From a virus, in the IMG/VR virus record IMGVR_UViG_3300035181_000829, positions 1-64,000 of that record: a DNA stretch of 64,000 bases. The stretch is one strand, 5' to 3'. Positions 3,808-64,000 of this stretch are shown here, one piece after another; position 1 is the first letter of the stretch, and each line of letters opens with the position of its first letter. Position numbers and translations under genes: made by a program. The notes beneath the pieces were generated by a model. It ran no database searches. It had not been told where the DNA came from and worked only from the letters and a program-made list of their open reading frames with translations.

Positions 3808-3877
3808 TTTCTATTCCTTTTCATGTTATACAAGCGCGAGTATCCCCCGCGCTTGCAATCGATTGTAGCGATGTGGC

Positions 3878-4102
3878 CTAGAGCGTGGCCTTCGCGGCAA
3901 GCGCGCGGGTGTGGATTGCGGCAAGAGACGCCGACAGATTGGAGTTCAGCAAGTCCCATTCAGCCTGCGTCGGATCGGCACCGCTGCTCACGATGTTCAA
4001 CAGTTGGGCGTGAACATCGGTCAGCGCGGCTTGGATTTCCGACACGGCTTGCAAACCGGCGAGGACGGCGCTCAGAGCGTTCAGCAGGGTAGTGGCATTC
4101 AT
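3878..4102 (-). CDS. hypothetical helical protein
   Basis: Start MNATTLL with GGGAG SD, abuts the upstream gene. Confidence 0.55.
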   Translation of the reverse strand: MNATTLLNALSAVLAGLQAVSEIQAALTDVHAQLLNIVSSGADPTQAEWDLLNSNLSASLAAIHTRALAAKATL

Positions 4103-4103
4103 G

Positions 4104-4847
4104 TCAGGCTCCCTTCGTGGCAATCGAGGCCGCTTCCAACGTGATGAGGACTTGCAGTGCCCCCTGCGCGATGGCAAGCGCATTCTGCTGCGCATCGGCA
4201 GTTCCCGGCTTCAAGCCAAGGATGACCGGCGAGGCCGTATTGATGGCTGCGGCGACCTTGCTGGCCGCGTTGTCAAGTGACACAACGACCTTGGGCTGTG
4301 CACACGCCGTCAACACTGTCGCCGAGCAAAAGGGCTGCGACGAATAGTCGGCTGCGGCCTTGACGTAGACCGCAAACTGCGACTTGATATTGTATAACGA
4401 TTGCGCCGGGGTCAGGTTGGCCGTTGCACCATCGGTATTGGTGATGGCACATGCCGCGATGATGGACAAGGCACACGCCGCTGCGACGGACCGCGCGGGT
4501 CGGAACAAGCTTGCAATCGATTGCAAGACCCGCTGCGCCACATTGCTATTACCAGACTGCGAACTTCCGGTGTCAGATTGGGAAGCGGTCGTTCCATCAC
4601 CGCCGCTGCCGGTCGTTGGCTTTCCGGGGGTCAGTCGCAACGGTTGCGTGGCCGACACGCGGCCCCAGATAACCAGCACCATGCCGATGCCTTGCAGGAT
4701 GCCATCGATTGCAGAATTAAGTTGGGAGGCGGAGTCAGCGGTGAAGCTGATGCCAAACTGCGGAAGGAACGTCGCCAGCAGGCCGACGATCAGTCCGATG
4801 ATGGTCTTGCTCTGCAAGAACCATTTGCTTTGAATTTCGCTGTCCAT
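4104..4847 (-). CDS. holin-like membrane protein fused to a lipoprotein-like domain
   Basis: Two TM helices (SKTIIGLIVGLLA...LVIWGR), Ser/Gly linker, internal lipobox-like LSIIAAC. Confidence 0.5.
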   Translation of the reverse strand: MDSEIQSKWFLQSKTIIGLIVGLLATFLPQFGISFTADSASQLNSAIDGILQGIGMVLVIWGRVSATQPLRLTPGKPTTGSGGDGTTASQSDTGSSQSGNSNVAQRVLQSIASLFRPARSVAAACALSIIAACAITNTDGATANLTPAQSLYNIKSQFAVYVKAAADYSSQPFCSATVLTACAQPKVVVSLDNAASKVAAAINTASPVILGLKPGTADAQQNALAIAQGALQVLITLEAASIATKGA

Positions 4848-4923
4848 TAAGTCCTCTCTTGGAGTTGGGGAGTCAGTGCCAATATCCTACACCAAGAAAG
4901 CCGCAAGAGAAAGTGAAACTTTT

Positions 4924-5370
4924 CTACTGATTCTTCCTGATAAGGGCGAAGTAGGCCCTGCATAGGAAATGGTTTCTATCGGGGTAGAACGCCATGAGGA
5001 TCGGACTCCAATGCGGTCGCTCGCCTTCCGGCAACGCCTTGTATCGCGCGACCATGTGGAGGTAAACAGATAGCGCGGCCATACCCTTCCATAGAACATC
5101 GCTCATGCGCCCGAGGATTCCAAGAATCTGATTGTCGAACTGGAAGAACGGCCCGGCGAGCGGGTAGAAAACATTCCAGTAGAACGCATTCATGCCGTTG
5201 CCGAGAAACCCCAGCCAGATTGCGAGTATCAACCACCCGGCGGCGGTATCTTCACGCTCAGCTTTTCGCGGGAAAAACCCAAGCAACCCGAAAGCCGCAA
5301 GAGTCACAAGCACCATACCAACGATGAACGCGATAACGTTAGTCCAGTCTTCGATCATACCATAGTTCAC
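4924..5370 (-). CDS. 3-TM membrane protein (possible holin)
   Basis: Three hydrophobic segments and a basic C-terminus. Confidence 0.5.
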   Translation of the reverse strand: MNYGMIEDWTNVIAFIVGMVLVTLAAFGLLGFFPRKAEREDTAAGWLILAIWLGFLGNGMNAFYWNVFYPLAGPFFQFDNQILGILGRMSDVLWKGMAALSVYLHMVARYKALPEGERPHWSPILMAFYPDRNHFLCRAYFALIRKNQ

Positions 5371-5561
5371 TTCTGACTTCCTTTGTCGTGTGCGATCTTT
5401 TGTCGCGCTAACTTAGATAGCGTTTCATCCATGAGACGATTAACGCTATCAAACTTTTCAGTTGTTCTCTGCCGAAGTTGTTGCGTCTGCTCAACTTCGG
5501 GGGAGGCAATGGCATGATTGCTTGGTAGTGCGTTGAAATACCATTTCGCGAGACGATTCAT
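5367..5561 (-). CDS. hypothetical protein
   Basis: 64 aa ORF coupled to both neighbours. Confidence 0.5.
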   Translation of the reverse strand: MNRLAKWYFNALPSNHAIASPEVEQTQQLRQRTTEKFDSVNRLMDETLSKLARQKIAHDKGSQK

Positions 5562-5562
5562 A

Positions 5563-6661: not shown

Positions 6662-6662
6662 G

Positions 6663-9600
6663 TTAAACGATTCCTTTCGCTGGGTGGCCTCGGCCAACCT
6701 TGTCCGATATTTGGTATACCATGATGTTTACGTGATTGCCCGGTGTCAGGCCGTCAGTCGTCTGGTCTGCCGCAGAGTATACGATAGTTTGGGCATCGTT
6801 GACAACAATGGTTCGCAGGACGGTCGCAAACGTGCCATCATACACATCGATTTCATAACGCTCGTAGGCTTCCGAGTTCGGAATGTCGATATAATCAGGC
6901 CACGCTATGCCGAATCTATCCCGACGAGTCCACACAATTGTCAGGTTGTTCGAGCCGTCGCGGGTGCCACCTAGGAAACATGGCGAATAAGGAAACAACC
7001 TCTGTGCCGTATTGGTGAAGGTTTCTGCTGCCACATCGGAAGTGTTGATGCCTATCGTAACAGCCTTGTAGGACATAGGACGATTACGGTTAGCAAGATC
7101 GTCGGTGAAGTTAACCAACGCGGCCTGTTGCAGCAGAACGAATTCTTCGTTGACAACGTGAGTATCAGTGCACTCCGATCTATCCGTTCCCGCGATGCCA
7201 CGGATGAATGCGCCGTTAAGCTGGAACTGGTTTCCGGTAAGGTGCGTTGCCGTGAGGAAGCTGACAAGCTCATTTCCAATGAGTGCAAGGTTTGAACCAC
7301 TAAGTAGTGCATCAGAGGTAACCGAAGTCAGCTCATTATCCGAGTTGTATAGTTGAACGACGATTGAACTGGTAATATCCGGCACCCTGCAATCGATTGC
7401 ACCGAGCAACGCACCGCTAACAACCTTACCCGCGACGATAGGCACGATGTTGGTCGAAATATCAACGTAGGTTGCACCGGAGTCGAGTGAACGGTAAAAC
7501 TCGGCGCCCTCCCAAGCCCCGTCTTCGGCTGCAAACCCAACATAGAAGCCCGCGTCGTTTTCGGTCGAGCGGATGGCGGGAATATCCATCAGGTATAGGA
7601 TAGTGTTTGCGAGTTTTATAGTGGCAGAGCCTACTGGCGAGATGTATTGCGAAGTGCCAGCGTTGCCGGTGATGCTGAGCACATTCAAGTCACCCGCGCG
7701 GCGCGGGGCCTTGTATAACGTGCCTTCGCATTGCAAGATGCCATCCGCACCACGGGTGACCGTGGTAAGCTTGACGATGGTTTCACTGTAAATCGGAAGC
7801 TTGTCGGTCTTGAGTGCCAAGTTCAAGATCGGGTTTTCGAAATACTGCCCGTTGTAAGAGGCTAGGACGGCAGCACAGTAAACTTGGCAGCGAACAAACC
7901 GTGTGCCAGCCGGAAGCTGGAAAGTCACCTTGCCTGTGGTGTAGGAAAGATTGGTGGTTCCAAGTATTATTTCAACAAAACCCGTGCCGTATGCGTCGAT
8001 GTAGCCATTAAAATCAGGAACGGTGTTTCCGTTCGCATCAAGGGTGCCTTTGAACGCATACAGCAGAACGCCGTGCGAACCTTCCCATACGAGATTGTAA
8101 CCACTATACTGTTGCTCACCGTCGATACAGAATTGCGCCACATGACCACCAGCCGCAATTTGATCATCCGTGAGGTAATTGCCGAGGTCAAAATCTTGGT
8201 AGAAGATACCACCAGACCAGTTACCGTTACCACCCGGAATGGCCTCTACACCTAAACCCCCCCACGTAGACATATAACCAACGTTGCCAGCGCCAAGCCA
8301 TACTCCGGGTGAGTATACATGCACAACGCCGTTGGAACCGTTAAGCAGGCCGGGGCGCGGATCGACACCACCACCGAACGGCGCTTGCAGAACTTCGATA
8401 TTCTGATCGTAATGCGTAGCCGAATTATCCCGCAGGGAGATAATGTCAGTGGGCGCAATCTGCACATACTTGTGCGGAAGCTTGAACTTCGCAGTATTCT
8501 TTTGCGTCCAAGCATCTTGCATACGCCGAACGACTGCATCCTTCATTATGCGGGGGTAGCTAACGACCGGGTATTCCGCAGTGGAGGTCTGTGTGCTCGG
8601 CGATTTCTTGACCGTGTTGCCCTTCTTGTTTATCCAAGTGTTAGGACCACTCTGGTCACGCACATATATCGCGTTGTTGATCTGGTAGTCGCGGCCCGGA
8701 TCGCTGTAGCTGATGCTCAACGAACGCGGGAGTTCCATAATGTCCGCGTAGCTATATTCGATCAGCGGGCTGGGCGATGACCCCGGCGTTTTCGCGTCAA
8801 GATCATCGGTGCTGATGATGTAATCGATTGCAGTGCGACGGCGGGGGCGGAAGACGATCTGATTCATAATATCGGCAGCATCAATATCGAACACATCGAG
8901 CATTGCCGTGATTGCGTCACGAATGCTTGTTTGCGTGCCGATGGTGTAGCCCGCGACAAAGGCATCGTCACCTGTAACCGGCAACGCGGTCAGATCGTAG
9001 TATTTCTCGTCAACTTCCCCAATATCCATGAGGTCTTCAATGATCCCCGCCGCCGTATCGTTTTCATAGCGAACGGTTTCAAACGTGAGGTTCGGGATGC
9101 GGTTGCCGAAGTTGGCAAGTTGCAGCGTATCAAACACGATATGCGCCCGGTCAATGTAGGCAGGCACGGGGCTGTTCAGTGCAACTTCCATCGCGGGATC
9201 GGAAATCTGATCTTCTGTGCCGCGATACAACGTCACGTTGTTGACCTGCGTCATTTGCAGAATCGATTGCTTCGACCAGTCCGCGAAAGCTGCAAACAGG
9301 TTGTAGTAAGAGTGCCACCCACGTTGACCAGTGCCGTCGCCGACGATACCACCTTCGCCGGTAATGCTGGCCTTAGACGGCACATATTTGAACGTGATTG
9401 GCGGGATAGTGACAGTGTGGATATTCGGGTAGACATACCAAATCTCTACCTGAATGCGCAGCCACCGAGCATACCGGGGGATTTGCAGTCCGTTGAGGAT
9501 TTTCTTGTCAACAGCCCCGCCGGTCGCCAGCACAGTCGTTGCCGATGTATCATGGAAAATCTGGAACGTGGTCCAGCTCTTACCTTCTTTCTGGTAGTCG

Positions 9601-10795: not shown

Positions 10796-11275
10796 TTAAA
10801 CGACGCCGCGAATTTTCCAGCAAGCGTGGATTCTTGGTATCAGGTAGGTAGGATCGATTGGCATCTCGATGACGCCGCGACGTTCTTGTGCATAAGAATG
10901 GATCATCGTTTCGCGGCCTTGGCTATCCTTGCCCGTATACACGACGATATGTCGGGGCACGCCGCGTTTTTCGATCCATAACGTGATCGCATCACCGGGC
11001 TGCAATCGATTGCAGAGGGCATCACCGGGCTGGTAATCGGTGCGGTCCATGTGATCGTAGCACAAGGTATCGAATGTCATGCTGTCAGGCATGTGCGAAT
11101 ACCCGGTAATCTTGGGGCCTTCGGTGAAGATACCTAGGCGGGTGCCGGATACGATAAGCAAGCCGATACAATCCATACGCTCAAGTGAACGGCCCATATG
11201 TTGAAACCGCGCCCCCTTGTGGGAACGCAATTCGGTGAGCCATTCCTGCCGGGTGACGGTCTTAGGCTTTTGCAT
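10796..11275 (-). CDS. NlpC/P60 tail-associated peptidase
   Basis: FQHMGR...MDCIGL, QPGD, RHIVVY, MIHSY; position in the GTA-like tail module. Confidence 0.85.
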   Translation of the reverse strand: MQKPKTVTRQEWLTELRSHKGARFQHMGRSLERMDCIGLLIVSGTRLGIFTEGPKITGYSHMPDSMTFDTLCYDHMDRTDYQPGDALCNRLQPGDAITLWIEKRGVPRHIVVYTGKDSQGRETMIHSYAQERRGVIEMPIDPTYLIPRIHACWKIRGVV

Positions 11276-12122: not shown

Positions 12123-13237
12123 TCAAAAACCTCGACCAGCACGATGCTGCTGAAATTGGCGACTGCGCTGTCACGCATACCAGCCGTGATTTCGGACGGC
12201 AGAACCGTCCCGTCCTTGAAGCGAACGGGAACATGGAAGTAGTAACCAGCGGTGATCAATGCGCCGACAGGTGGTAGCGTGGGCGTGAGTGTGATCGAAT
12301 GGGTTTCATCCACACCGCCCCATGCCGTTCCGTCATACTTCTGCAACGTGAGATAGTGGGCGGGTGAGATAGCGGCGATACGCAGCGGGGCACCCGACTG
12401 CGGCGCGTTGTTCGCCGTGTTGGCGAATCCTGTGATATAGACCAAATCACCGACATTGAAACCAGCGGTATTCGAGGTTATCAGGTTGTTGCCGGTCTTC
12501 GTAAACGTGTTCGTGGTCGCGGGACGACCAAGCGAAAAATCAATCTGGCATGTTGCCATATTGTAAGACCAGTTGAAAACTTGAAAGCCATCGACCGCGA
12601 GCACAAGCGTCGATACATCGGGATAACGGATGCGACGTTGTTTCTGGTAAGCGCCATAGGTATAGTATTTGTAAAGCGGGTAGGACGCCTGTGCACCGAC
12701 CGCGACGGCAATCTGTTGGTCTAGCATGGTCACATTGGTAAGCGACATGCCTGCATCACTTTCCGCGCTTGTGTTGTCCAGCGGGTCCATGAACAGGAAT
12801 GCGGCGAAGTCACCGGAGACAACGTGCCAGATGCGCATTACCTGCGCTATCTCGTTGGCTGGCAGGTTATCCATCTTGATATTGTATTCGTGCTTCGGGT
12901 ATTTCCACCGCTGTTGCCGCTGTTCGGCCCCGCTGTCCACTTCGGACTTGTAGGTCTCGTAAGTGGGCACCCCGGTCGAGCCGTATGTGATGCACTCTGG
13001 GAAAATCAGATCGGTGTAAACCATGTCGGTATCCTCGGTTCCTTCGGTCGCTGCAATCGATTGCCGACCGCCATTCGGCGCACGATCTGCACGAAACATT
13101 ACATCGATGCCAACGCCAAACACTTTGACAACATTACCGGCTATCATGCAATCTATGCCAACACCGTAAACCTTTTTGAACAAGGATGATTTGGTTAGAG
13201 CATCGATGCCAGTTCCGTATACTTTCGTATAGGTCAT
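12119..13237 (-). CDS. distal tail protein (DUF2460-like) with N-terminal repeats and a central insertion
   Basis: FP.CITYGSTG.P.Y.T...SG.EQR...W.YP, FLFMDPLD, ITAGYYFHVPVRF. Confidence 0.85.
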   Translation of the reverse strand: MTYTKVYGTGIDALTKSSLFKKVYGVGIDCMIAGNVVKVFGVGIDVMFRADRAPNGGRQSIAATEGTEDTDMVYTDLIFPECITYGSTGVPTYETYKSEVDSGAEQRQQRWKYPKHEYNIKMDNLPANEIAQVMRIWHVVSGDFAAFLFMDPLDNTSAESDAGMSLTNVTMLDQQIAVAVGAQASYPLYKYYTYGAYQKQRRIRYPDVSTLVLAVDGFQVFNWSYNMATCQIDFSLGRPATTNTFTKTGNNLITSNTAGFNVGDLVYITGFANTANNAPQSGAPLRIAAISPAHYLTLQKYDGTAWGGVDETHSITLTPTLPPVGALITAGYYFHVPVRFKDGTVLPSEITAGMRDSAVANFSSIVLVEVFE

Positions 13238-14441: not shown

Positions 14442-14470
14442 GTTGTATCCTCGCTTGCAATCGATTGTAG

Positions 14471-17400
14471 TCAGGTATTGCGCCGTGCTTTTTCAAGCGC
14501 AGCACCAAGTTGTTTCGCGTGTTGATCCGCCGAACGCCGGAAGGTATCAGCCGGGGCTTGGCCTCCGTTCACATGGTAGTGCACATTCAGATGGGTATCG
14601 CCGTGGTGGACACTGTTGTTATCGCCCCCGCGCACGTTGTTGTTCACCGCACCTTGACCCATCATAGCAGCAAAATCGGCGCTGCCAACCTGACCGCTTA
14701 CCTCGCCGCCCGCTGCGAATCCATTGAAGCTCTTGCCAGACATTAATCCAATAAGCTTCTGCGTATCGCCCGGTTTGATGGCTCCGCTGTTGATCGCTTT
14801 CAGCAATGGGCGGAAATTCTTCGTCGCCTCGCTATGCACAACGAACTCGCCGTTCGAAAGCCAAGCAGGGATACTGTCGCTCGTGCCATTACCAGCGCCA
14901 TACACATCGCCGCCGTCAGCGAAGCCAAGGAAGCTTTTGATGCCGCCGAGGATTGAATTGCCGATTCCACCGAAAATACCACCGAGCGTTCCGCCAGCAG
15001 CACCACCGCCACTACCACTTAGGCTAACCGGGTTAAAGGTAGCCGAACCGAGCGACTTACCACCGCTTGCTGCCTGAGTCGCGGCGTTCAGCCCAGCAAC
15101 GAACTGTGCACCAAACGTATTGATCGTCGTCACAAGCGAGGTTGAAAACTGCGTGAAGATCGACTTGAACTGATCAGCCGCTTCGGTCGCATTCTTGCTG
15201 AGCGCATCAAGTATGCCACCACCGCCCGCCGCAGCCCCAGCGGTAGAACCCGCTGCACCGGATGGGGCCGTAGTGTGGGTTAACCCGAGGGCTGACAGAA
15301 TACCACCTATAAGACCACTGCTACCTACAGATGGCGTGCCAGCGCTGCCCTGTTGTGACGGTTGCTGCGCATTGCCGAAGATCGAACCACCACCGCCGGT
15401 CAGGCTGGAAATGGATTGCTGGATCAGGCCCTTGGTGAAGCCCGCGAAAATCTGCTTGGAAATGTCCAGCATGGACTTCTTGAAGCTATCCCAAGCGTTC
15501 TTCGTGTCGAAGATGAAATCGCCGATACCTTTGGACAGAGTGTCGAGCACGCCGGTCGTGGCCGTCGATACAATGTCAGTAAGCGTGACAAGGCTCTTTT
15601 CGTATTCTGCAAAGCCTTTGTCGATCCCCGCTGCGACGATGGTCCAAGTATTCTTAGTATGGAACGCCAAATCGTCAAGATCACGCTCGAACAGCTTGAT
15701 GGCATCGTCACGACGCTTCATCGAGTTCTCAAACGATGCTACCGCTGCAAGGTCAGCGGCTTCGGCCTTCTGCAACGCAACGATGGTTGCCTGATAATCG
15801 CCCGCGATCTGGTCGGTCAGCTTTCCCTTGGCACCGATGGATTTCAGTTGCTCTTGCAGTTTGGCAATCTGACCTTCGTATTTGCTCTTTACCGCAGCCT
15901 CATCATAGTTGAAGTTGAAGTCGATGCGTTGATCGATGGTCAGCCCTCGGGTGCTGTCGTTCAACGTCTTTTGTGCATCAAGCAACGTTTTCTGCGCCGC
16001 CCGAAGTTCGTCGGCAATCTTATTGGCCGTATCAACGCCGCTGCTACCGCCTCGTGCGGGTCCACGGGCACCACCGGGTTTGAATGACGCGGAGACAGTG
16101 GCTACAGCTTTCTGACCGGAGAGCACACCGTTGGTAACGACCTGTTCGATCTGTGCGAGCAAGTTTTTAGATACATCATCGAGAAACTTGACCATCTCAG
16201 GCGAAAGGCTCAACGCCTTTGCGGAGGCGTTCACAAGATCGACAACAACTTGCTGGTATTTCGCAAACTGCGAGGCGGTGAATGCCTGCACATCGGCGGG
16301 GGACGCATTCGGATTCTGAGCGAGGTAGTTCTTGATTGCGTCAATCGCGGGCTTGCCTTCAATAAGGTCAACAAGGCCCGGAATGTTGGCGGGGTCAAAT
16401 GCGAGGCCAGCCTTGTCAAATGCAGCCTGTGCTGCGGCGGCATACCCGGCGTAGTCATCGGTTCCGATAGCGTCAAAGATCGCCTGATACTGTTTGGTGG
16501 ACTTATCTGCAACAGCTTGGGCATCTTGCAACGTAGTTAGATTAGTGCCTGCCGCTGCGGCTTGCAGTGACGTGGCTAGGCTCTTGGACGTTTCCGACAG
16601 GAGCTTTTCGTAATTGATCCGCGTTTTCAGGTTTTCAGCATCAAGCACAGCACGAGCCGTATCGATGCCCGCATCAATTACCTTCGTGGTTTGCTTGGCC
16701 GTATAGCTCGCAATTATTTGACCGGCCTGCGATTCCGAAACGTTGCTGTCAGTGCTTAGGATGGTGCGAAGAATGTCATCGAGGTTTATGGCCCCTTTGG
16801 TATCCTTGAGCTTATTGACAATATCCGTGATCACCTGCTTGTTTTGCAGGAGCTTCGCAAAGTCAATCGATTTGAACTGGTCCGGCAGGGTGGTATCCCC
16901 GCTTGCAATCGATTGTAGGAACTTCGTAAGGCCGACCGCGCGATGTTCCTGCGCACCATGAAGAACCGAAAGCGTCCGGTCTAGTAGTTCATTTTCGCTA
17001 GCTGTCTGCTGCGTATACTCAATAACAGACTTGGCGATTTCGGTGCCGTAGTTGTCCACAAGCCAACTGCTGAGGTAGCTCTGCATATTCTGCGCGTAAG
17101 GCTGCTTTTCCTGTATGTATTTCGCAACCTGATTGCTGGCTGCAATAATGCTGGCCCGATCTTTCTCGTTAACGCTCGCGAGGTTCTTGCTGAAATCATC
17201 CTGTGAAGCCTTTATAGCGTCGGAAATGGTGCCAAGTTGTTTTGCAGCGTCATCTATTGATGCCTGCGTATTCTGCACATACATAAGAGGTTGGCTGTAA
17301 AGCGTAGTGTCTGCAAGGCCACTATCATACCGTTGTTGGTCCAGTTGCAGGTTAGCCGATATGTTCCCCGCATCCTTCTGCGAGAATGCACTTCCTTGCG

Positions 17401-20321: not shown

Positions 20322-20421
20322 GCCAGTGTCCAACACGATGAACGGGCAGTTCGAGAGTTGGAGCTTCCTCGGGTCAATTCCACCGAAATCATGGTTATCT
20401 CCGCTTGCAATCGATTGTAGC

Positions 20422-23846: not shown

Positions 23847-23872
23847 GACATTCCCCGCTGCAATCGATTGTA

Positions 23873-29129: not shown

Positions 29130-29205
29130 ATCTGCTAACTCCTTTTGGATTAGCAGCAACTATACTCCACAACTTTTTTTGGCACAAGCTACAATCGATT
29201 GCAGG

Positions 29206-41065: not shown

Positions 41066-41252
41066 GACGTTCCCTTTCGCTTGCAATCGATTGTATTACG
41101 CGGGTTAACGTAGCGTAGTCCTGTTCCAGAGTGATGATATTGATGGTTTTCCCCGCGCGCAGGACCAAGGTCGGTGTAAACCCGGCTGGGGCGTTGGCGA
41201 TAAGGGCAAGCGCCGCAGCGCGGTCATTTTCGCTTAGCAATAGCGTCGGCAT
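41037..41252 (-). CDS. hypothetical protein
   Basis: MPTLLLS...; packed array. Confidence 0.4.
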   Translation of the reverse strand: MPTLLLSENDRAAALALIANAPAGFTPTLVLRAGKTINIITLEQDYATLTRVIQSIASERERHARHTGGSG

Positions 41253-44997: not shown

Positions 44998-45490
44998 GTC
45001 GTTAGTCCCGTTTGCGGCGCGCTTGATTGCGGTTGTGCCGTGACGCGATATTACGCGGCAATTGTGGCAAGAATAAGGCGCTTGCAATGGATTGTAAGCC
45101 GCGCGCGGGGGCCGCCGTGGAGTTGGGAAGGGGCGTCGGGAAGGGGCCGCCGTGACGCTGGAAGGGGTGCTACGCGGCAAGGTCGGGTTTAGGCTGTAAG
45201 GATATGTCGGGCGGCAGAGTTCGCCGTGTAGGACGAAAAAGGGTTTTCCGTAGGTGGAAACGGATTGTTGACCGCTATATGTAGTGTTACCCCGCGTTAG
45301 GTGCGGATTAGGTATTGACGCCGCGCCGGAAGTATGAATCGAGGCGGCAGGGCGATTCGCGCAAGAATGTTTCGTCGCTGATTTGGGGCGAATGCAAAAG
45401 TCGTTATGTGATGCCGCGCCGGAAACGATAAAGAGTGATTAGTCGTTATAACGAAACGGTAACGAATTGTTACGGAAGGCATTTTTCGGA

Positions 45491-45519
45491 TTGACGGTTG
45501 GGCGGTGGCATGTTATAAT
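45491..45519 (+). promoter_or_regulatory. consensus sigma70-type promoter, antisense to all genes
   Basis: TTGACG-17 bp-TATAAT with extended -10 TG. Confidence 0.75.
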
Positions 45520-46711: not shown

Positions 46712-46786
46712 TTTGTTCCGTTTGTTATGGGCATAGGTGCCCGCAGAAACGTTACCGCGAGCACTTCTTTGTTGCAATGGATTGTA
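46712..46786 (-). promoter_or_regulatory. early promoter cassette (palindrome variant overlapping -35, 17 bp, -10, hairpin, RBS)
   Basis: TTGCAA (46777-46772), 17 bp, TAACGT (46754-46749), GGGCAcctaTGCCC hairpin; sister cassettes at about 46095-46166 and 47120-47195. Confidence 0.7.
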
Positions 46787-47116: not shown

Positions 47117-47198
47117 TTTATCGCTCCATTTGTTCATGGGCATGAGTGCCCGTGTTAACGTTCGCAGGGGGACAACATTGTTGCAATGGATTGCAGCG

Positions 47199-48554: not shown

Positions 48555-48789
48555 TGTCATTTGCTCCGTTGTAGCGGGTCGTTCCCGCGATGTGATATTT
48601 GCAGGTAATCTCCCGCGTTGCAAGCGATTGTAGCGTTACAACCGGTATTCCGCAGGAACCCACGCATTACGTGCCAGTTCTTTTTCCGTTTACTTTGCTC
48701 CGTTTATGGCGGGTTGTTCCCGCAAGGATATGATTGCACGTTACCATCGGTGCAGCAATCGATTATAACAGGTCTGCTAATTTACCTTG

Positions 48790-49802: not shown

Positions 49803-49921
49803 TCGCTTTGCTCCGTTATAACGTGTTTCCGTGCAGTCGATTGTAAGCGAAAATCACCGTGAAAACCACGCGAAAATTAGTGTTCTAAGCCTGCTTTTTC
49901 ATGCTTTTTAATGTTCAATGT

Positions 49922-50349: not shown

Positions 50350-50472
50350 ATACTTAATCATATTATTACTATATATACTATCTATTAGTTTTTAGTAGTT
50401 TAGACCCGCGATGGAAGTTCTAGGCCCGCGATTCTTCTAGAGAACCCGCGATTATGCTTACAATCGATTGTA
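50350..50472. other. origin-like element: AT-rich stretch, three 20-bp-phased CCCGCGAT repeats, perfect palindrome
   Basis: AT-rich 50350-50402; CCCGCGAT at 50405, 50425, 50445; TACAATCGATTGTA at 50459. Confidence 0.5.
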
Positions 50473-52288: not shown

Positions 52289-52399
52289 TCTGGTTTGCTC
52301 CGTTTGCTTGCGCGGTTACGTTCCGCGTATATGTAGGGTAAACCCGTTACTTCTTCGTTGCAATCGATTGTAGCATATCAAGAAGGCGATTGTAGCATA

Positions 52400-54625: not shown

Positions 54626-54983
54626 CCTTCGACTCCTTCAAAGGGATAATCGCCATTTTCCCCGGCTTAGTCATCCACGGCTGCAATACAATTGATTGTA
54701 GCCAATCCTGAGGCGTAGGGATCAGCCCAGCGCAATCTTCCCGCACATGCTGTTCCCCGATGAACCGAACTGGTATTTGTTTGCCATCCGAGTTGGTGAT
54801 CGTCACCCCAAACACGCGCTCGGCTTCGAAGATGCCATGCGTGTGATGGCGCAATGCCCGATGCCGGAAATCGGGCACAAGTTCTTTGGTGGCATCGAAC
54901 CAGTTATGGATCGGAAGATAATCTTCTGCCTTGCCGCCGAACTTATGAACCGAAGACAGTGCATGATGATGCGGATGAGCCAT
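54603..54983 (-). CDS. His-rich protein (DUF6915-like)
   Basis: MAHPHHHALSS..KFGG..EDY..IH.WFD.TK...DFRHRALRHH..GIF.AE..FG, EQHVREDC. Confidence 0.7.
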   Translation of the reverse strand: MAHPHHHALSSVHKFGGKAEDYLPIHNWFDATKELVPDFRHRALRHHTHGIFEAERVFGVTITNSDGKQIPVRFIGEQHVREDCAGLIPTPQDWLQSIVLQPWMTKPGKMAIIPLKESKDDQTGNL

Positions 54984-56115: not shown

Positions 56116-56331
56116 TGTGGCTCCATTGGGTTGGGGTTATGCCGTGCAATCGATTGTAAGCCCGCTACTAGGATAACGCAAGACGATTGGAGGATACTGG
56201 AAGTAAGGGTGGAATAGACGGGTTTTCCGTTCTTGGAACGTCGTTGTAGGGGCTATTTTAGGCGATTTTAAGGCCAATGTCGGTGGTGCCCGCTAGGGTG
56301 GTAGCTTGAGAGACGGGAAACCAGTGTATGA

Positions 56332-57799: not shown

Positions 57800-57876
57800 T
57801 CCCGGTGCTCCGTTGGTGAATGCTACGCTGTAGGCATAGCGTAGCAATCGATTGCAAGGGGCACAAGCTGATTATA

Positions 57877-58747: not shown

Positions 58748-58812
58748 ATTGGTTGCTCCGTTTATATGCGCGTGCTTATAGGCTAGCTGCTTGCCTCGTC
58801 CGTTGCAATCGA

Positions 58813-59094
58813 TTATAGCGTCTCATTGTAGCCTGCCGCGTAGATTGTGCGCGCATACTCAACGAGCACATCGATGCGTTTGATCATCTCTTGGAAGGTG
58901 GCAATATCTTCCATTCGCGCGTTCCAGCCGTTCTGCGCAGTTTGGTAGTTGCGACCATGCAGAACATCTCTGTAGATAATATTCATGGCCGCTCGGCAGG
59001 TAGTGGTAGCTTCTAGAAGAAGGTGCGCCGCGCAGCTAAAATCAGCAGTGGTGTTGCCATTTAGCTTTGGGCGCGCATTGATATTGACCTGCAT
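58813..59094 (-). CDS. hypothetical protein
   Basis: LNGNT, HGRNYQ. Confidence 0.6.
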   Translation of the reverse strand: MQVNINARPKLNGNTTADFSCAAHLLLEATTTCRAAMNIIYRDVLHGRNYQTAQNGWNARMEDIATFQEMIKRIDVLVEYARTIYAAGYNETL

Positions 59095-60509: not shown

Positions 60510-60583
60510 GCTAGGCTCCGTTGGGTAGTTGCTATGCAATCGATTGTAGGGGATTGCCAACTACGGCGCTATAATAAAGCGCG

Positions 60584-61413: not shown

Positions 61414-61743
61414 CGTTTAGCCCCGCGTGTTTGCTACTCGCATATATTAGCACGGAAGCACTATCGATGCAATCGATTGTAACGTTACTATTTACGCGGT
61501 TTACTGCCTAAAAGTTTCATTAGCAATTCGCTTTTCTCCGCGCGATGAACAGGTGTCACCTTCTTATGCTAAACTGGCCTTGGAGGAACCAAACAAAGCG
61601 AGTATCAACATTGATAACATCTTGCTATCCATTATCAGTTTCTTCCGCGTTTACTACATCATGAGTTATCAAAATTCATTAACTATCCATCTTCTACGCT
61701 TTTTGGCACATCGTCATTGGTTACAAAAAACCATTAACTAATA

Positions 61744-62190
61744 TCAAATATCAGACATTGCCTTGTCGAGAATCTTGTAAAATTTGCTGGCACCATCTAT
61801 ATCGCAGCCAATTGTCGATTCGATCTGTCTGGCGTTGAAGAAAAGCGTGTCTAGCACGTAAGCACGATGTGTGCCTTCGGTGGGTTTGAAGCGTCCGCTT
61901 GTAACGCATTTCATTGCACCAAGCAATGCTGTCTCAAGCTGAAACTTCATAACTCTGCGCCCTACCTTGATGCGTTCATGGTTCACTACCCGCAGCATCT
62001 CTTGCATGACGTTCTCTGGCTGTCTGTCAAGGTAATGCGAAATTACTTGTGCGATGTGCTGGATAGTCGGATTGTTTTCCGGCTTCTCGCCGTTGCGAAT
62101 GGCGATTTCTTTAATGATGATGGCAAGAATAATAAGGCCGAGAATGAACCGACATTCCGTTTTGCGCTCGGGTGATAGCTGGGTTTTCAT
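61744..62190 (-). CDS. hypothetical protein
   Basis: Helical ORF; start uncertain (62190 or 62235). Confidence 0.55.
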   Translation of the reverse strand: MKTQLSPERKTECRFILGLIILAIIIKEIAIRNGEKPENNPTIQHIAQVISHYLDRQPENVMQEMLRVVNHERIKVGRRVMKFQLETALLGAMKCVTSGRFKPTEGTHRAYVLDTLFFNARQIESTIGCDIDGASKFYKILDKAMSDI

Positions 62191-62240
62191 GGATGATGTG
62201 TGCCGCGCGCTGCAATCGATTGTAACGCGCGGCACGCTCC

Positions 62241-62582
62241 TTATTCGTCGGTATGTTCGATGGGGGTCGGGTGCTCGGCGTAGAAGTCAGGATCGACGCG
62301 CGGGTGCATTTCCCCGAGAGCCTGTTGCTCGACTTCGGCGAAACTCACTTCCTTGTGGGCTTTCGCTTCTTCGAGCGTTTGGTAAAGCTCGACCGCGTAT
62401 TCCGTGCTGACCGAAAGATCATACACGCCATATCCCGTTGTGATCGGCGGATCATTTTTGGGATTCAAAGCGACGATCTTTTCCCTCGTCGTCTGCGTCG
62501 GGTAGTAGTGAAACTCGCTATCGATCGTCACGCGATAGAAGTCTCCAAGCGAGATAATCAGTGGCATCATGTATCCTTTCAT
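62241..62582 (-). CDS. hypothetical protein
   Basis: 113 aa, acidic C-terminus. Confidence 0.55.
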   Translation of the reverse strand: MKGYMMPLIISLGDFYRVTIDSEFHYYPTQTTREKIVALNPKNDPPITTGYGVYDLSVSTEYAVELYQTLEEAKAHKEVSFAEVEQQALGEMHPRVDPDFYAEHPTPIEHTDE

Positions 62583-63010
62583 AGATCAAAGATGCGGAAG
62601 TCTGGGACACTTTTCAAACGTTGTATGGTGAGGAACGAGTAGATCATCAGGCACCGCATCGCCGGATTGGAGTGTATCAAAACCATACCGCGTTGCTGTG
62701 TATAGTTCAAGACATGAGTTGCACGGATCAAGACATGCTGCGTATTCACGACCGGCTCGAACTCGTTCGCGATCCGCAAGTCTTGCCCTTGCACGAAGTA
62801 GTGCTTCTGTAAGAGGCCGCTCTTGATGAAATTGTCTGTGAATAGCTCCGTTGGCATAAGCTTGTTCGGCGATATATAATCTCTTACAATTCGTAGGCGG
62901 AAGTCAAAAGGCCACTTTGCGGTATCTGGTGGAGTTCGGACATTGATTATCCCATCCTCCACGAAGACGTATGTAGATTGCTCAAGATCACTTCTCTTGC
63001 GAATAGCCAT
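62579..63010 (-). CDS. hypothetical protein
   Basis: Starts MAIRKRS. Confidence 0.6.
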   Translation of the reverse strand: MAIRKRSDLEQSTYVFVEDGIINVRTPPDTAKWPFDFRLRIVRDYISPNKLMPTELFTDNFIKSGLLQKHYFVQGQDLRIANEFEPVVNTQHVLIRATHVLNYTQQRGMVLIHSNPAMRCLMIYSFLTIQRLKSVPDFRIFDL

Positions 63011-63028
63011 TGGACCCCACCGTTTCGC

Positions 63029-63535
63029 TTAGAACCTGAACTCCGGTTCGTCGTTAATGAGTGACGCTTTTTCCCGCGCAAGCTGCAACAGCGCGCCGAC
63101 GATTGCAGCGTTGATATTTCGGCCCGGAAAAAGCGAAGTTACCTTTTCCCCGCGCTCGTAGACAAGAGCAACGGCAACAATGGCATCTGGCATGAAGTCG
63201 AAATCGCCGACCGGCCACTGATGCGATTTCGGGGTGATCGCAAGCATGTCAAACCCCATCGCGAGAGGAAGCAATGTGAAATTCACGTTGATGTTCATCG
63301 CTAACGACACATTGTAGAGTGGCGATAGTTGCAGATACTCCGAGATGATTTCCTGAAACAGAAGATCGAAGGTCGGATCATCAAATGCTTCCTGTATAAC
63401 GCAGGATAGCATTTCTTCGATTCGGGCGTCGATTACCTGATCATCGACAAGTTTGATGTAAGGCCTGCTGTAGTCCATTTGCCCCTCTAATACCACATTG
63501 AATCTGTGTGCGCCCACAACCATTTTGGAATCCAC
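63029..63535 (-). CDS. hypothetical protein
   Basis: Probable GTG start after a GGGGGGA SD, just downstream of a palindrome copy. Confidence 0.55.
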   Translation of the reverse strand: MDSKMVVGAHRFNVVLEGQMDYSRPYIKLVDDQVIDARIEEMLSCVIQEAFDDPTFDLLFQEIISEYLQLSPLYNVSLAMNINVNFTLLPLAMGFDMLAITPKSHQWPVGDFDFMPDAIVAVALVYERGEKVTSLFPGRNINAAIVGALLQLAREKASLINDEPEFRF

Positions 63536-64000
63536 TTGGCATCCCCCCACTTGCAATCGATTGTAGCGTGTTGGCGGAACGCTAAATGACGCCATGCAAC
63601 GCCATGATACGCTCCGCAGTAACGAAAGTCTATATCCGTCTGATCCGCGCCGGGCCTTAATTGGATTGCCCCATATTGGCGCATTTTCGCCTTACCCTCC
63701 CACGTATGGTTGTCGTTAGCATATAGTGGAACCCGCCGCAGGTCCGCTAGCGGGGCGCGATAGCGTGTAGGGTTGTTTATTAGCCGCTTGTGGTCCGTTG
63801 GCGCTAGGCTACGCACCGTTGCGGCGCTTTCCCCGCTTAGGGCATCCGCAAGCGCGTTTATCTCGTGGTAGCCGGGGGCACCGTAGTTCTTGTTGCGTTC
63901 GGTTAGCAAGCCGACAAGCTGCATGGCATAGTCGTGATCTACCTCGAATTTATTCGGGTGTTCTCCGTTAAGCACGTCGATCAACACGTTGTAGATTTGC
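63487..64000 (-). CDS. hypothetical protein, 5' end outside the window
   Basis: Frame is open to the window edge. Confidence 0.5.
   Translation of the reverse strand, partial: QIYNVLIDVLNGEHPNKFEVDHDYAMQLVGLLTERNKNYGAPGYHEINALADALSGESAATVRSLAPTDHKRLINNPTRYRAPLADLRRVPLYANDNHTWEGKAKMRQYGAIQLRPGADQTDIDFRYCGAYHGVAWRHLAFRQHATIDCKWGDAKWIPKWLWAHTDSMWY

What the first reader, a model, noticed from the sequence alone, without database searches (positions are those of the whole stretch)
3854..63565. Genome-wide 14-bp palindrome TRCAATCGATTGYA written into genes and spacers: candidate phage self-marking or silencing system
Seen: 22 exact and about 14 one-mismatch copies in 64 kb. Chance expectation for exact copies is about 0.001 (4 x 64000 / 4^14, equal base frequencies). 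Many copies lie inside essential ORFs and force the peptides LQSIA/LQSIV, (C/Y)NRLQ or AIDC in three different frames (tail tip, NlpC/P60, tape measure, portal, terminase, ParB), so selection acts on DNA, not protein. Asymmetric copies are oriented: 13 read TACAATCGATTGCA on the coding strand and 3 the other way, with extended consensus CTACAATCGATTGCAAGCG. Known: the TGnAAnCGnTTnCA shape is that of LacI/GalR-family operators; dispersed intragenic repressor sites are known as mycobacteriophage L5/Bxb1 stoperators (asymmetric 13-mers); parS sites are palindromes bound by ParB. Inference: a dimeric protein binds this site along the whole genome, as a stoperator-like roadblock, as a loading site that coats or protects phage DNA, or as a sponge for a host LacI-type regulator.
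Basis: partly seen in the sequence, partly recalled or inferred. Interest (0 to 1): 0.92.

Follow-up and report, generated by a model that had tools for sequence, protein, structure and literature searches.

The report
Evenly spaced palindrome lattice in phage
This uncultured 90-kb phage and a broad group of cultured relatives keep one short DNA palindrome every 2-4 kb, inside genes as well as between them, most likely as docking sites for a phage protein not yet identified.

Summary
The window has 22 exact and 15 one-mismatch copies of TRCAATCGATTGYA. The whole 90,231-bp record has 31 exact and 54 with at most one mismatch. Dinucleotide and synonymous-codon shuffles give about zero.

It is the local form of a clade-wide element, TGCAA-N4-TTGCA. 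I found 14-55 copies in 12 of 13 phage genomes examined, on Rhodobacter, Agrobacterium, Rhizobium, Stenotrophomonas, Pseudomonas, Aeromonas and Vibrio. Copies are far more evenly spaced than chance, 29-72% are intergenic, and asymmetric copies point with transcription.

Best reading (0.45): a docking-site array for one inherited, dimeric phage DNA-binding protein acting genome-wide. No binding was shown. The orphan ParB/Noc/KorB-like protein is weakened as reader, because two relatives keep the sites without any ParB gene. A MerR-fold protein in the replication module fits the distribution slightly better.

It is not a core promoter element and not a LacI-type operator at clade level. My searches of the held paper library found no description. 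This scan has already reported the same lattice on other DNA.

The parts
3854..3867 (-). exact copy, TACAATCGATTGCA on the coding (minus) strand; intergenic
4512..4525 (.). exact symmetric copy inside gene 4104-4847 (VLQSIASL)
4700..4713 (.). one-mismatch copy inside gene 4104-4847
7388..7401 (.). exact symmetric copy inside the 1373-aa tail gene (AIDC)
8819..8832 (.). one-mismatch copy inside the 1373-aa tail gene
11001..11014 (.). exact symmetric copy inside gene 10796-11275 (CNRLQ). RcDurkin gene 48, its homologue, carries a copy in the same frame about 230 nt from the start
13052..13065 (.). one-mismatch copy inside gene 12119-13237
14456..14469 (-). exact copy between the tape-measure stop and the next start codon (14 nt before ATG)
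16904..16917 (-). exact copy inside the tape measure gene (FLQSIASG)
20406..20419 (-). exact copy after the tail-tube gene, directly after a hairpin plus T-run. RcDurkin (25465) and JP1 (21388) carry a copy at the same junction
23859..23872 (-). exact copy 12 nt before the head-tail adaptor start, directly after a GC hairpin. RcDurkin (22038) and JP1 (18436) carry a copy at the same junction
27345..27358 (.). exact symmetric copy in the last codons of the portal gene, 19 nt before the protease start. RcDurkin (18624) and JP1 (11436) carry a copy at the same junction
29190..29203 (+). exact copy in the minority orientation; intergenic
30066..30079 (.). exact symmetric copy inside gene 29694-30116
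31357..31370 (+). exact copy in the minority orientation; non-coding by my rough gene calls
33547..33560 (-). one-mismatch copy inside the large terminase gene
34390..34403 (+). exact copy near the 3' end of the ParB-like gene (DLQSIVAS)
36553..36566 (-). one-mismatch copy inside the 520-aa gene annotated as glycosyltransferase in RcDurkin
38241..38254 (.). one-mismatch copy inside gene 38062-39015
39325..39338 (-). exact copy inside gene 39012-39416 (LYNRLQ)
41082..41095 (-). exact copy 16 nt before a start codon
43162..43175 (-). one-mismatch copy inside gene 42826-43194
45083..45096 (-). one-mismatch copy, intergenic, small-gene region
46773..46786 (-). one-mismatch copy, intergenic, 65 nt before the next start
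47182..47195 (.). one-mismatch copy, intergenic, 65 nt before the next start
48619..48632 (-). one-mismatch copy, intergenic, 64 nt before the next start
49832..49845 (-). one-mismatch copy, intergenic, 29 nt before the next start
50459..50472 (.). exact copy TACAATCGATTGTA in a long non-coding stretch
52359..52372 (-). exact copy, intergenic, 70 nt before the next start
54687..54700 (.). one-mismatch copy inside gene 54603-54983
56145..56158 (-). exact copy, intergenic, 29 nt before the next start
57843..57856 (.). one-mismatch copy, intergenic
58804..58817 (-). one-mismatch copy (TATAATCGATTGCA), at a gene edge
60535..60548 (-). exact copy, intergenic, 25 nt before the next start
61468..61481 (-). 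exact copy, intergenic, 54 nt before the next start
62211..62224 (-). exact copy inside gene 61744-62235 (TIDC)
63552..63565 (-). exact copy inside gene 63487-64785 (TIDC)
34309..35175 (-). candidate reader 1: orphan ParB_N protein (288 aa) whose model resembles Noc, KorB and ParB over N-domain plus helical domain. It sits in the conserved module GT-like / small / ParB-like / about 200 aa / TerL
   Evidence: module
37541..38065 (-). winged-helix (HTH_24/MarR-like) protein, 43% identical to RcDurkin gp19. A weaker candidate: no relative detected outside the RcF group at tblastn E 1e-4

Best explanation
The palindrome is the RcF-group version (TRCAA-TCGA-TTGYA) of a clade-wide element, TGCAA-N4-TTGCA. 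A large lineage of 80-110 kb siphoviruses of Alpha- and Gammaproteobacteria keeps it at some 25-55 evenly spaced places per genome. I read it as an array of high-affinity docking sites for one vertically inherited, phage-encoded, dimeric DNA-binding protein that acts on the whole chromosome rather than on single promoters.

The likely action is direction-sensitive control of transcription: roadblocks or insulation at unit boundaries and inside long operons, or silencing of an episomal prophage.

Shown: the array, its conservation, its even spacing, its orientation bias, and selection independent of codons.

Inferred: that a protein binds it, which protein, and what binding does.

Two readers are on the table. 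One is a MerR-fold protein between the helicase and RecA genes (record 70531-71136, outside the window). The other is the orphan ParB/Noc/KorB-like protein next to the terminase (window 34309-35175).
For: Enrichment:
- Exact and one-mismatch counts against shuffles.
- Enrichment survives synonymous-codon shuffling: 15 and 29 observed against means of 0.23 and 1.68.

Conservation across the clade, TGCAA-N4-TTGCA with at most one mismatch, with the reversed-sequence control in brackets:
- G000 50 (5), RcDurkin 51 (2), JP1 40 (6), VH2_2019 36 (1)
- DLP5 41 (3), RHph_TM16 25 (4), RcZahn 26 (2), PaMx31 34 (4)
- L338C 55 (2), HJ05 28 (1), SIO-2 26 (4), Ares1 14 (6), Kitkat 0 (2)
- The half-site is constant. 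The centre changes by phage lineage: TCGA, ACGT, TTAA, TCAA, CATA, CTGG.

Spacing:
- CV of gaps is 0.41-0.73 with P at or below 0.011 in 11 of the 12 genomes that carry the element.
- With the RcF pattern, CV is 0.46 and 0.49, P below 5e-5, and the largest gap is 3.85 and 3.74 kb in G000 and RcDurkin.

Placement:
- 25 of 53 sites are intergenic in RcDurkin, which is 8% non-coding by its curated annotation.
- 24 of 54 in G000.
- 28/40, 22/36, 12/41, 18/25 and 14/26 in JP1, VH2, DLP5, TM16 and RcZahn.

Orientation: the A variant lies upstream 44 times and downstream 9 times in G000 plus RcDurkin.

Position: three late-operon junctions carry a site in G000, RcDurkin and JP1 alike.

Candidate readers:
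- The ParB model (pLDDT 84.6) aligns over 187-230 columns with Noc, the KorB-KorA complex, Noc on its DNA site, and ParB-CDP.
- The MerR-like model (pLDDT 84.4) has MerR-family DNA-binding domains as its 11 best rows: Z 5.1-6.4, rmsd 2.4-4.1 A over 60-83 residues. The RacA DNA-binding domain is among them.

Lifestyle: relatives DLP5 and DLP3 are temperate, and DLP5 was isolated as a phagemid (PMC5834331 abstract in the listing; PMC7326821 passages).
Against: - No binding was tested.
- Neither candidate tracks the element cleanly.
  - ParB_N is absent from SIO-2 and Ares1, which keep 26 and about 25 sites. It is present in Kitkat, which has none.
  - The MerR-like family was not found in RcZahn and is marginal in TM16 at E 0.02. 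Nine of its hits are the seeds of my own profile.
- The presumed recognition helix of the ParB-like protein is poorly conserved, even between G000 and RcDurkin, which share the identical site.
- An invariant half-site across proteins only about 30% identical is unusual for a phage regulator. It would fit a conserved enzyme better.
- Even spacing and in-gene copies are not expected of ordinary operators.
- The structural matches of the MerR-like model are middling (Z below 8). Foldseek found nothing at E 0.001 or better.
Confidence: 0.45

Rival explanations
1. The sites are loading sites of the phage's orphan ParB/KorB/Noc-like clamp. The protein loads at each palindrome and slides about 1-2 kb either way, so that sites every 4 kb or less coat the whole genome. 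The coat would silence the genome, protect it, or keep host silencers off DNA that is poorer in G+C than the host.
For: - ParB_N domain (E 3.5e-10).
- The model matches Noc, KorB and ParB beyond the N-domain.
- A 14-bp palindrome is the size and shape of parS, NBS and OB sites (recalled).
- Even spacing with a largest gap near 3.8 kb.
- ParB_N ORFs are present in 10 of the 12 genomes that carry the element.
- Phage G+C is well below host G+C in RcF and DLP3 (PMC8601537 and PMC7326821 passages).
Against: - SIO-2 and Ares1 lack any ParB_N by four searches yet keep evenly spaced sites.
- Kitkat has the ParB-like gene next to the glycosyltransferase gene but no sites.
- The HTH-equivalent helix is variable.
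- Box II reads GHHR, not GERR.
- No ParA-type gene is present.
Confidence: 0.2
2. The sites are signals for a DNA transaction carried out by a conserved core enzyme, not a regulator. Possibilities are lagging-strand priming or helicase loading, preferred cleavage points for the RuvC-like resolvase (the constant half holds TT/G), a phage-specific Chi-like stop signal for the helicase plus Cas4-like nuclease, or a packaging checkpoint. Even spacing is then the point. Intergenic placement only reflects where a 14-mer costs least.
For: - The half-site is invariant across a clade whose only well-conserved proteins are capsid, portal, terminase, polymerase, primase, helicases, the RecA-like protein and nucleases.
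- Even spacing in 11 of 12 genomes.
- In-gene copies in all frames.
- Motif and terminator occur in either order: hairpin then motif in G000, motif then hairpin in JP1. This argues against a fixed role in a transcription unit.
- The orientation bias could equally follow the direction of replication or packaging, since nearly all genes point one way.
Against: - I recall no such enzyme that needs a 14-16 bp dyad. Known primase, RuvC and Chi signals are 3-8 nt.
- In Vibrio phage VH2 the site sits 8-13 nt upstream of all 6 perfect TTGACA promoter-like sites in a 20-kb stretch. That looks transcription-linked, though those sites may be copies of one cassette.
- Three late-operon junctions are conserved in position.
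Confidence: 0.2
3. The element is a part of promoters read directly by host RNA polymerase: TTGCAA as a -35, and TACAAT as a -10 in the RcF group.
For: - By eye, many RcF small-gene-region sites are followed by TAnnnT at 17-18 nt from a half-site, some with TGn.
- The A variant creates TACAAT on the coding strand, 44 against 9.
- Earlier notes on this record read it the same way.
Against: - The consensus promoter scan of 44-64 kb is at chance (25 found, shuffle mean 20.7), and none of its hits is a motif site.
- In VH2, Ares1 and SIO-2 a separate near-consensus -35/-10 lies downstream of the motif.
- Late-region sites end 2-31 nt before the start codon, leaving no room for a promoter built on a -35 half-site.
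- JP1 and VH2 variants hold no -10-like hexamer.
- About half the copies are deep inside genes.
Confidence: 0.07
4. The element is the target of a sequence-specific DNA modification (self-marking) made by the conserved glycosyltransferase-like and ParB-like module next to the terminase.
For: - The GT-like / ParB-like / terminase module is conserved in G000, RcDurkin, JP1, VH2, DLP5, TM16 and Kitkat.
- Phage thymine dioxygenase pathways co-occur with glycosyltransferases (31%), ParB proteins (27%) and terminases (19.2%), and some need a ParB activator (PMC13229309 abstract and sections 8 and 12).
Against: - No Tet_JBP domain in the record.
- The 520-aa protein matches no Pfam or PHROG family.
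- The known enzymes prefer 3-nt contexts, not 14-mers.
- Kitkat has the module without the motif, and SIO-2 and Ares1 have the motif without ParB.
- Marking alone does not explain the orientation bias.
Confidence: 0.06
5. The sites are operators of, or a sponge for, a host LacI/GalR-type regulator.
For: - The RcF, JP1 and PaMx31 variants fit the recalled shape TGnAAnCGnTTnCA.
- The same 14-mer occurs three times within 900 bp beside dioxygenase and dehydrogenase genes in an Inquilinus chromosome, so bacteria can use it as an operator.
Against: - The central CG is absent in the VH2, DLP5, TM16, RcZahn, HJ05 and L338C variants.
- The centre follows phage lineage, not host.
- No LacI HTH in the phage.
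- An 18-mer form is at chance level in 596 Gb of prokaryote genomes: 12 hits, about 17 expected by my arithmetic.
Confidence: 0.02

Closest known systems
17-bp dispersed palindrome of Cluster O mycobacteriophages (TGTTCGG-N3-CCGAACA; Corndog and relatives; PMC4351075, abstract and passages read)
   Same: - More than 30 dyad-symmetric copies spread over the whole genome of a siphovirus with no proven lysogeny.
- Many copies are intergenic and about a third are in genes.
- The authors predict a dimeric binder and call the function unknown.
- A ParB-like domain protein is encoded.
   Different: - Different sequence and geometry (7-N3-7 against 5-N4-5).
- Different host phylum.
- No orientation with transcription was reported there; here 44 against 9.
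- Even spacing was not analysed there.
KorB and its OB operators on IncP plasmid RK2 (PMC11790492, abstract in a listing only; site number and sequence recalled)
   Same: - A short palindrome at many places on a mobile element, next to promoters or far from them.
- The window encodes a protein whose model matches the KorB-KorA structure 8qa9.
   Different: - About 12 sites there against about 50 here.
- No ParA/IncC partner and no KorA identified.
- The ParB-like gene is missing in two relatives that keep the sites.
Stoperators of Cluster A mycobacteriophages L5 and Bxb1 (PMC9283540, abstract in a listing; details recalled)
   Same: - Tens of repressor sites over the genome, many in short intergenic gaps, oriented with transcription.
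- They are thought to stop elongating polymerase.
   Different: - Stoperators are asymmetric 13-mers read by a monomeric immunity repressor of a temperate phage.
- These sites are dyad-symmetric, evenly spaced and often deep in genes.
- No such repressor is identified here.
RacA and its ram sites, and Noc and its NBS sites, on the Bacillus subtilis chromosome (recalled; structures 5i41, 7ol9 and 7nfu appear)
   Same: - 14-bp palindromes dispersed at tens of places.
- Readers are a MerR-fold winged helix (RacA) or a ParB-family protein (Noc).
- These are the two folds of my two candidate readers.
   Different: - Those are chromosomal systems for anchoring and division control, with sites clustered by chromosome region.
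- They are not evenly tiled over a phage genome.

Membership tests
Mycobacteriophage stoperators | asymmetric 13-bp site | tested here: not met
   The site is a 14-16 bp dyad, and 6 of the 22 exact window copies are perfectly symmetric.
Mycobacteriophage stoperators | many copies over the genome, enriched in short intergenic gaps, oriented with transcription | tested here: met
   25 of 53 sites are intergenic in RcDurkin against 8% non-coding DNA. Orientation is 44 against 9.
Mycobacteriophage stoperators | read by the phage's immunity repressor | not tested
   No repressor homologue was sought. RcDurkin's annotated 'immunity repressor' gp126 has no counterpart in G000 at tblastn E 1e-5.
ParB-parS / KorB-OB / Noc-NBS | 13-16 bp palindromic site | tested here: met
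ParB-parS / KorB-OB / Noc-NBS | element encodes a ParB-family protein with N-terminal NTP-binding domain plus DNA-binding helical domain | tested here: met
   Pfam ParB_N E 3.5e-10. Foldseek matches to Noc, KorB and ParB over 187-230 columns. Box II is GHHR, not GERR.
ParB-parS / KorB-OB / Noc-NBS | reader gene and sites occur together | tested here: not met
   SIO-2 and Ares1 have sites without ParB_N. Kitkat has ParB_N without sites. The other 10 genomes have both.
ParB-parS / KorB-OB / Noc-NBS | ParA-type partner ATPase (for partition systems) | tested here: not met
   No AAA_31 match in the record at E 1 or better. Only this one Pfam family was searched.
ParB-parS / KorB-OB / Noc-NBS | protein binds the site | not testable with these tools
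   No protein-DNA tool was available.
Cluster O mycobacteriophage repeats | more than 30 dyad-symmetric copies throughout the genome, in and between genes | tested here: met
   paper passages
Cluster O mycobacteriophage repeats | sequence TGTTCGG-N3-CCGAACA | tested here: not met
   Different half-site and spacer.
LacI/GalR operators | TGnAAnCGnTTnCA with a central CG kept across the family of sites (shape recalled) | tested here: not met
   The shape fits in G000, JP1 and PaMx31. The centre is TTAA, TCAA, CATA or CTGG in VH2, DLP5, TM16 and HJ05.
LacI/GalR operators | LacI-type HTH protein encoded by the phage | tested here: not met
   No PF00356 match at E 1 or better.
Sigma-70 core promoter element | hexamers at 16-18 nt spacing that include the motif | tested here: not met
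   The consensus scan is at chance and none of its hits is a motif site. In VH2 the motif lies 8-13 nt upstream of a separate TTGACA.
MerR-family regulator with dyad operator | MerR-fold winged-helix protein present | tested here: inconclusive
   VIA Z 5.1-6.4 to eleven MerR-family domains. Foldseek found nothing at E 0.001 or better. Pfam MerR_1 reaches its cut-off only for the VH2 homologue.
MerR-family regulator with dyad operator | operator inside a long (19-20 bp) promoter spacer (recalled) | tested here: not met
   Site positions relative to putative promoters vary, and most sites have no promoter nearby.

The most novel reading that the evidence does not exclude
The lattice is a physical ruler for a process that moves along the DNA. 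Stations every 4 kb or less would be where a phage factor is loaded or reloaded. That factor could be a sliding clamp, a polymerase-riding antiterminator of the AlpA/Q kind (the RcF variant places a -10-like TACAAT on the non-template strand), or a Chi-like switch that spares phage DNA while unmarked host DNA is degraded. This would be a mode of whole-genome self-marking by sequence, not yet described for viruses, shared by a broad clade of cultured phages.
Probability: 0.25. Interest if true: 0.9.

Novelty: new variant of a known kind. Interest (0 to 1): 0.76.

Why it matters
- A 14-bp sequence kept at about 50 evenly spaced places, against coding constraints, across phages of at least seven bacterial genera implies a strong, unknown, genome-wide function.
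- The carriers include easily handled laboratory phages: RcDurkin on Rhodobacter capsulatus, JP1 on Agrobacterium, and VH2_2019 on its Vibrio host. The reader protein and the effect can therefore be found with standard binding, transcript-mapping and recoding experiments.
- Finding them would also speak to the similar unexplained repeats of Cluster O mycobacteriophages.
- Practically, the element is a compact marker for recognising this clade in metagenomes.
- It is also a constraint to respect when these genomes are recoded or engineered.

Tried and rejected
- **RNA hairpin.** The common asymmetric form puts an A.C mismatch in the stem on the coding strand, and the G.U-compatible form is the minority. 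By inspection the stem is only 5 bp. I set this reading aside.
- **Re-start promoter after attenuating terminators.** In G000 the hairpin precedes the motif (20406, 23859). In JP1 the motif precedes the hairpin (18436, 21388). Rejected.
- **Thymine dioxygenase pathway.** No Tet_JBP match.
- **Expression or end data.** The look-up of sequencing runs listed 4 DNA holders (sediment and microbial-mat metagenomes), all kept as contigs, and no RNA holder. Contigs cannot show ends.
- **ParB homodimer job.** No verdict.
- **Host enrichment.** The 18-mer scan of genome contigs gave 12 single hits, which is chance level by my arithmetic. Only the Inquilinus locus had more than two copies.
- **The search for homologous proteins with the MerR-like ORF.** Nothing found. 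The exhaustive search found 53 relatives.
- **Pfam and PHROGs.** No family for the 520-aa, 209-aa, 115-aa, 317-aa and 134-aa neighbours, nor for six conserved proteins beyond the window.
- **Promoter assignments by eye in G000 and RcDurkin.** The consensus scan does not support them, so I do not rely on them.
- **Literature.**
  - Six motif strings gave 2 unrelated papers.
  - 'RcDurkin' gave one listed paper, with no occurrence of 'palindrom' or 'motif'.
  - The ParB-phage-CTP search and the DLP5 search gave no description of the array.
  - Supplementary files were not requested and may hold repeat maps, for example the S-figures of PMC8601537.
- **Coverage limits.**
  - L082 could not be searched.
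  - Only 13 genomes of the clade were examined, out of 220 records that share the capsid protein.
  - They were picked by me for diversity, not at random.

Full report
**1. The observation**

None of 100 dinucleotide-preserving shuffles had any copy. Allowing up to two mismatches gives 41 copies: 22 exact, 15 with one mismatch and 4 with two. The shuffle mean is 0.84.

The window is the first 64 kb of a 90,231-bp IMG/VR virus record rated 96% complete. The whole record has 31 exact copies and 54 with at most one mismatch.

My rough gene finder puts 120 of 125 genes on the minus strand. Coding copies lie in all three frames and give LQSIA/V, (C/Y)NRLQ and A/TIDC.

After shuffling synonymous codons within each gene, coding DNA of the record holds a mean of 0.23 exact copies and 1.68 with at most one mismatch. 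The observed numbers are 15 and 29. RcDurkin gives 18 and 28 against 0.27 and 1.95. Selection is therefore on the DNA.

**2. What the genome is**

The nearest cultured relatives are the cluster RcF Rhodobacter capsulatus phages RcDurkin, RcTiptonus, RcKickapoo and RcMenchie. They match at only about 75% nucleotide identity over a tenth of a 24-kb query. Protein identities run from 27 to 78%.

The paper on these phages describes 94-kb siphoviruses with P1-like headful packaging and no evidence of lysogeny. The words 'palindrom' and 'motif' do not occur in it (PMC8601537, passages).

**3. The element is shared by a whole clade**

- RcDurkin carries the same 14-mer 53 times at one mismatch or fewer.
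- Six IMG/VR fragments carry it at about one per 2 kb. Three unrelated large viral contigs have one or two copies.
- Relatives found through the ParB-like protein and the capsid protein carry variants with the same half-sites and a different centre:

| Phage | Main variant |
|---|---|
| Agrobacterium phage JP1 | TGCAAACGTTTGCA (23 exact) |
| Vibrio phage VH2_2019 | TGCA(A/G)TTAATTGCA |
| Stenotrophomonas phage DLP5 | TGCAATCAATTGCA (31 TGCAA-N4-TTGCA) |
| Rhizobium phage RHph_TM16 | TGCAACATATTGCA (17) |
| RcZahn | 9 exact |
| Pseudomonas phage PaMx31 | TGCAA(A/G)CG(C/T)TTGCA (30) |
| Aeromonas phage HJ05 | TGCAAC(C/T)GGTTGCA (16) |
| Rhizobium phage L338C | TGCAAC-NN-GTTGCA (47) |

The reversed-pattern controls were all 0. 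One search counts every genome with one definition, at most one mismatch in the ten fixed positions. It gives 14 to 55 copies in 12 genomes, against 1 to 6 in reversed-sequence controls. Arthrobacter phage Kitkat has none.

RcZahn and RcDurkin infect the same strain but have different centres. The centre therefore follows phage lineage, not host.

**4. Anatomy of the array**

- *Spacing.* Copies are much more evenly spaced than random placement.
  - With the RcF pattern the coefficient of variation of gaps is 0.46 (G000) and 0.49 (RcDurkin).
  - At most 1 of 20,000 simulations was as regular or had as small a largest gap.
  - The largest gaps are 3.85 and 3.74 kb.
  - With the general pattern, 11 of the 12 carrier genomes have CV 0.41-0.73 with P at or below 0.011.
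  - Ares1 is not significant by that definition. Its 25 TTAATTGCA sites look evenly spread by eye (not tested).
- *Placement.* In RcDurkin, with curated annotation, 25 of 53 sites are intergenic although only 8% of the genome is non-coding.
  - In G000 it is 24 of 54 against 12%.
  - In JP1, VH2, DLP5, TM16 and RcZahn it is 28/40, 22/36, 12/41, 18/25 and 14/26, against 8-18% non-coding by my gene calls.
  - The remaining copies lie in genes, including deep inside the long ones: tape measure, terminase, polymerase and the tail protein.
- *Orientation.* In G000 plus RcDurkin the A-for-G variant lies in the upstream half 44 times and in the downstream half 9 times. DLP5 shows 21 TCAA against 9 TTGA centres on the gene strand. 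HJ05 shows 8 CTGG against 1 CCAG.
- *Position.* Three late-operon junctions carry a site in G000, RcDurkin and JP1 alike: portal/protease, the small gene after the capsid gene/adaptor, and tail tube/next gene. Other positions differ.
- *Distance to the next gene.* Intergenic sites fall into two groups.
  - One group ends 2-31 nt before a start codon, with only the ribosome-binding site between.
  - The other ends 43-99 nt before it.
  - The first group needs no special explanation. In compact operons, stop-motif-SD-ATG is simply the shortest way to fit a 14-mer between two genes.

**5. It is not a core promoter part**

By eye, many RcF small-gene-region sites can be read as a -35 (TTGCAA) or a -10 (TACAAT), as earlier notes on this record also did. 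The consensus scan of 44-64 kb does not support this. It finds 25 promoter-like sites against 20.7 +/- 4.9 in shuffles, and none of them is a motif site.

In Vibrio phage VH2 the picture is clearer. All 6 plus-strand promoter-like sites with a perfect TTGACA in a 20-kb stretch lie 8-13 nt downstream of a motif copy. There the motif sits upstream of a complete promoter, often straight after a terminator T-run. Ares1 and SIO-2 show the same layout.

These may be copies of one cassette, so the fixed distance is weak evidence of contact with polymerase.

The motif is also not a re-start promoter behind attenuators. The hairpin precedes the motif in G000, and the motif precedes the hairpin in JP1.

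**6. Who reads it?**

It belongs to a phage family with at least 157 relatives in the large protein collection, several on contigs of 90-100 kb. An AlphaFold model (pLDDT 84.6) matches Noc, the KorB-KorA complex, Noc on its DNA site and ParB-CDP over 187-230 columns, that is beyond the N-domain.

Its gene sits in a conserved module: glycosyltransferase-like / small / ParB-like / about 200 aa / large terminase. I saw the module in RcDurkin, JP1, VH2, DLP5 and TM16. I saw it without the terminase neighbour in Kitkat and without the glycosyltransferase in RcZahn.

Three results count against it as reader:
- SIO-2 and Ares1 are close relatives of VH2 (capsid 73-74% identical).
  - They have no ParB_N by tblastn with two queries, by a protein search and by the Pfam model.
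  - Yet they keep 26 and about 25 sites with a strong right half and a weaker left half.
- Kitkat has the ParB-like gene next to the glycosyltransferase gene but no dispersed palindrome of any kind that I could find.
- The helix that aligns with the ParB HTH is poorly conserved even between G000 and RcDurkin, which share the identical site. The conserved parts are the N-domain and a C-terminal helix-hairpin domain.

*The MerR-like protein.* A second candidate came from synteny. It is a 135-200-aa protein between the helicase and RecA-like genes in G000 (record 70531-71136), RcDurkin (gp76), VH2, SIO-2, Ares1, DLP5, PaMx31, L338C and HJ05.
- A profile built from these nine also finds JP1_076 (E 4e-4). 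It finds TM16 only marginally (E 0.02), and nothing in RcZahn or Kitkat.
- Its model (pLDDT 84.4) has no Foldseek match at E 0.001 or better.
- Its 11 best VIA rows are all MerR-family DNA-binding domains, including the RacA DNA-binding domain. Z is 5.1-6.4, which is middling.
- It is thus present in the ParB-less relatives and absent from the motif-less Kitkat. The evidence is thin, and partly circular, since nine hits are the seeds.

No LacI-type HTH, ParA-type ATPase or Tet_JBP domain is encoded.

**7. Mechanism**

I commit to a docking-site array for one inherited dimeric phage DNA-binding protein with a genome-wide, direction-sensitive effect on transcription (0.45).

The dyad symmetry, the lineage-bound centre, the orientation bias, the intergenic preference and the conserved junctions fit this. 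The episomal, temperate lifestyle reported for DLP5 and DLP3 gives silencing a plausible purpose (PMC5834331 abstract in a listing; PMC7326821 passages).

What fits less well is the invariance of the half-site across very divergent candidate proteins, and the strict even spacing. A conserved enzyme or a sliding clamp would explain those better. I therefore keep the ParB-clamp reading (0.2) and a DNA-transaction signal (0.2) as serious rivals. Promoter part (0.07), modification target (0.06) and host LacI sponge (0.02) rank lower.

**8. Comparison with what is known**

- *Closest in kind.* The 17-bp palindrome of Cluster O mycobacteriophages has more than 30 copies in and between genes. Its function is unknown, the authors predict a dimeric binder, and a ParB-like protein is encoded (PMC4351075).
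- *Closest mechanistic models.* These are KorB with its OB operators, Cluster A stoperators, and the RacA-ram and Noc-NBS systems.
- *Membership.* It fails on defining features in each case. I therefore file the element as working like these systems, not as a member of any.

**9. Novelty**

None of six motif strings occurs in a relevant paper of the held library. The papers on RcF phages, DLP3, phage ParB-dependent dioxygenases and the ParB-fold survey do not mention such an array in the passages I read. Supplements were not seen.

This scan has reported the same TGCAA-N4-TTGCA lattice on at least five other genomes, with similar verdicts. The present window is another member, not a first sighting.

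- the ParB-less carriers SIO-2 and Ares1;
- the MerR-fold candidate;
- the codon-shuffle control on two genomes;
- the orientation count;
- the argument from motif and terminator order.

Noticed in passing
window 35528-37090 (minus strand): This 520-aa protein is 76% identical to RcDurkin gp21 ('glycosyltransferase') and 55% to its JP1 homologue. That makes it the best conserved non-structural protein in the comparison, yet it matches no Pfam or PHROG family. It always lies just upstream of the ParB-like gene.
   Followed up: partly
record 85318-87858 (beyond the window; L152:5318-7858): The conserved AAA ATPase (PF00004) is interrupted by an intein with an HNH_3 endonuclease signature.
   Followed up: no
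window 49989-50194 (minus strand): Three promoter-like sites of one pattern (TTGATA or CTGATA, 16-17 nt, TACAAT) lie about 88 nt apart in a long non-coding stretch. They are not motif copies.
   Followed up: no
window 45491-45519 (plus strand): A near-consensus promoter-like site (TTGACG-17-TATAAT with TG) points against the direction of all neighbouring genes.
   Followed up: no
L188:6108-6998 (Inquilinus ginsengisoli chromosome contig): Three copies of the same 14-mer (two exact, one with one mismatch) lie within 900 bp, beside the starts of a catechol-type dioxygenase gene and a zinc dehydrogenase gene. This looks like a bacterial operator set unrelated to the phage array.
   Followed up: partly
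window 34309-35175, residues about 176-224 of the ParB-like protein: The most conserved part outside the N-domain is a helix plus two beta-hairpins (AKE.IKSVDDLSSVLN.IFKE.G ... FSFGGK.HHY). It is also kept in Kitkat, and its role is unknown.
   Followed up: no
record 70531-71136 (beyond the window; L151:6531-7136): The public collection calls this MerR-like gene as 108 aa. Its relatives of 170-210 aa align from about residue 45 of the 201-aa reading, so the longer form is probably right. A motif copy lies inside the gene here (70954) and in RcDurkin gp76 (63060).
   Followed up: partly
L185 and L193 (Cognatiyoonia and Yoonia MAG contigs): Single copies of the 18-mer form occur on short contigs binned with marine Rhodobacteraceae. 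This is a weak hint of the host group, consistent with the sediment and mat sources of the record, but the scan as a whole is at chance level.
   Followed up: no
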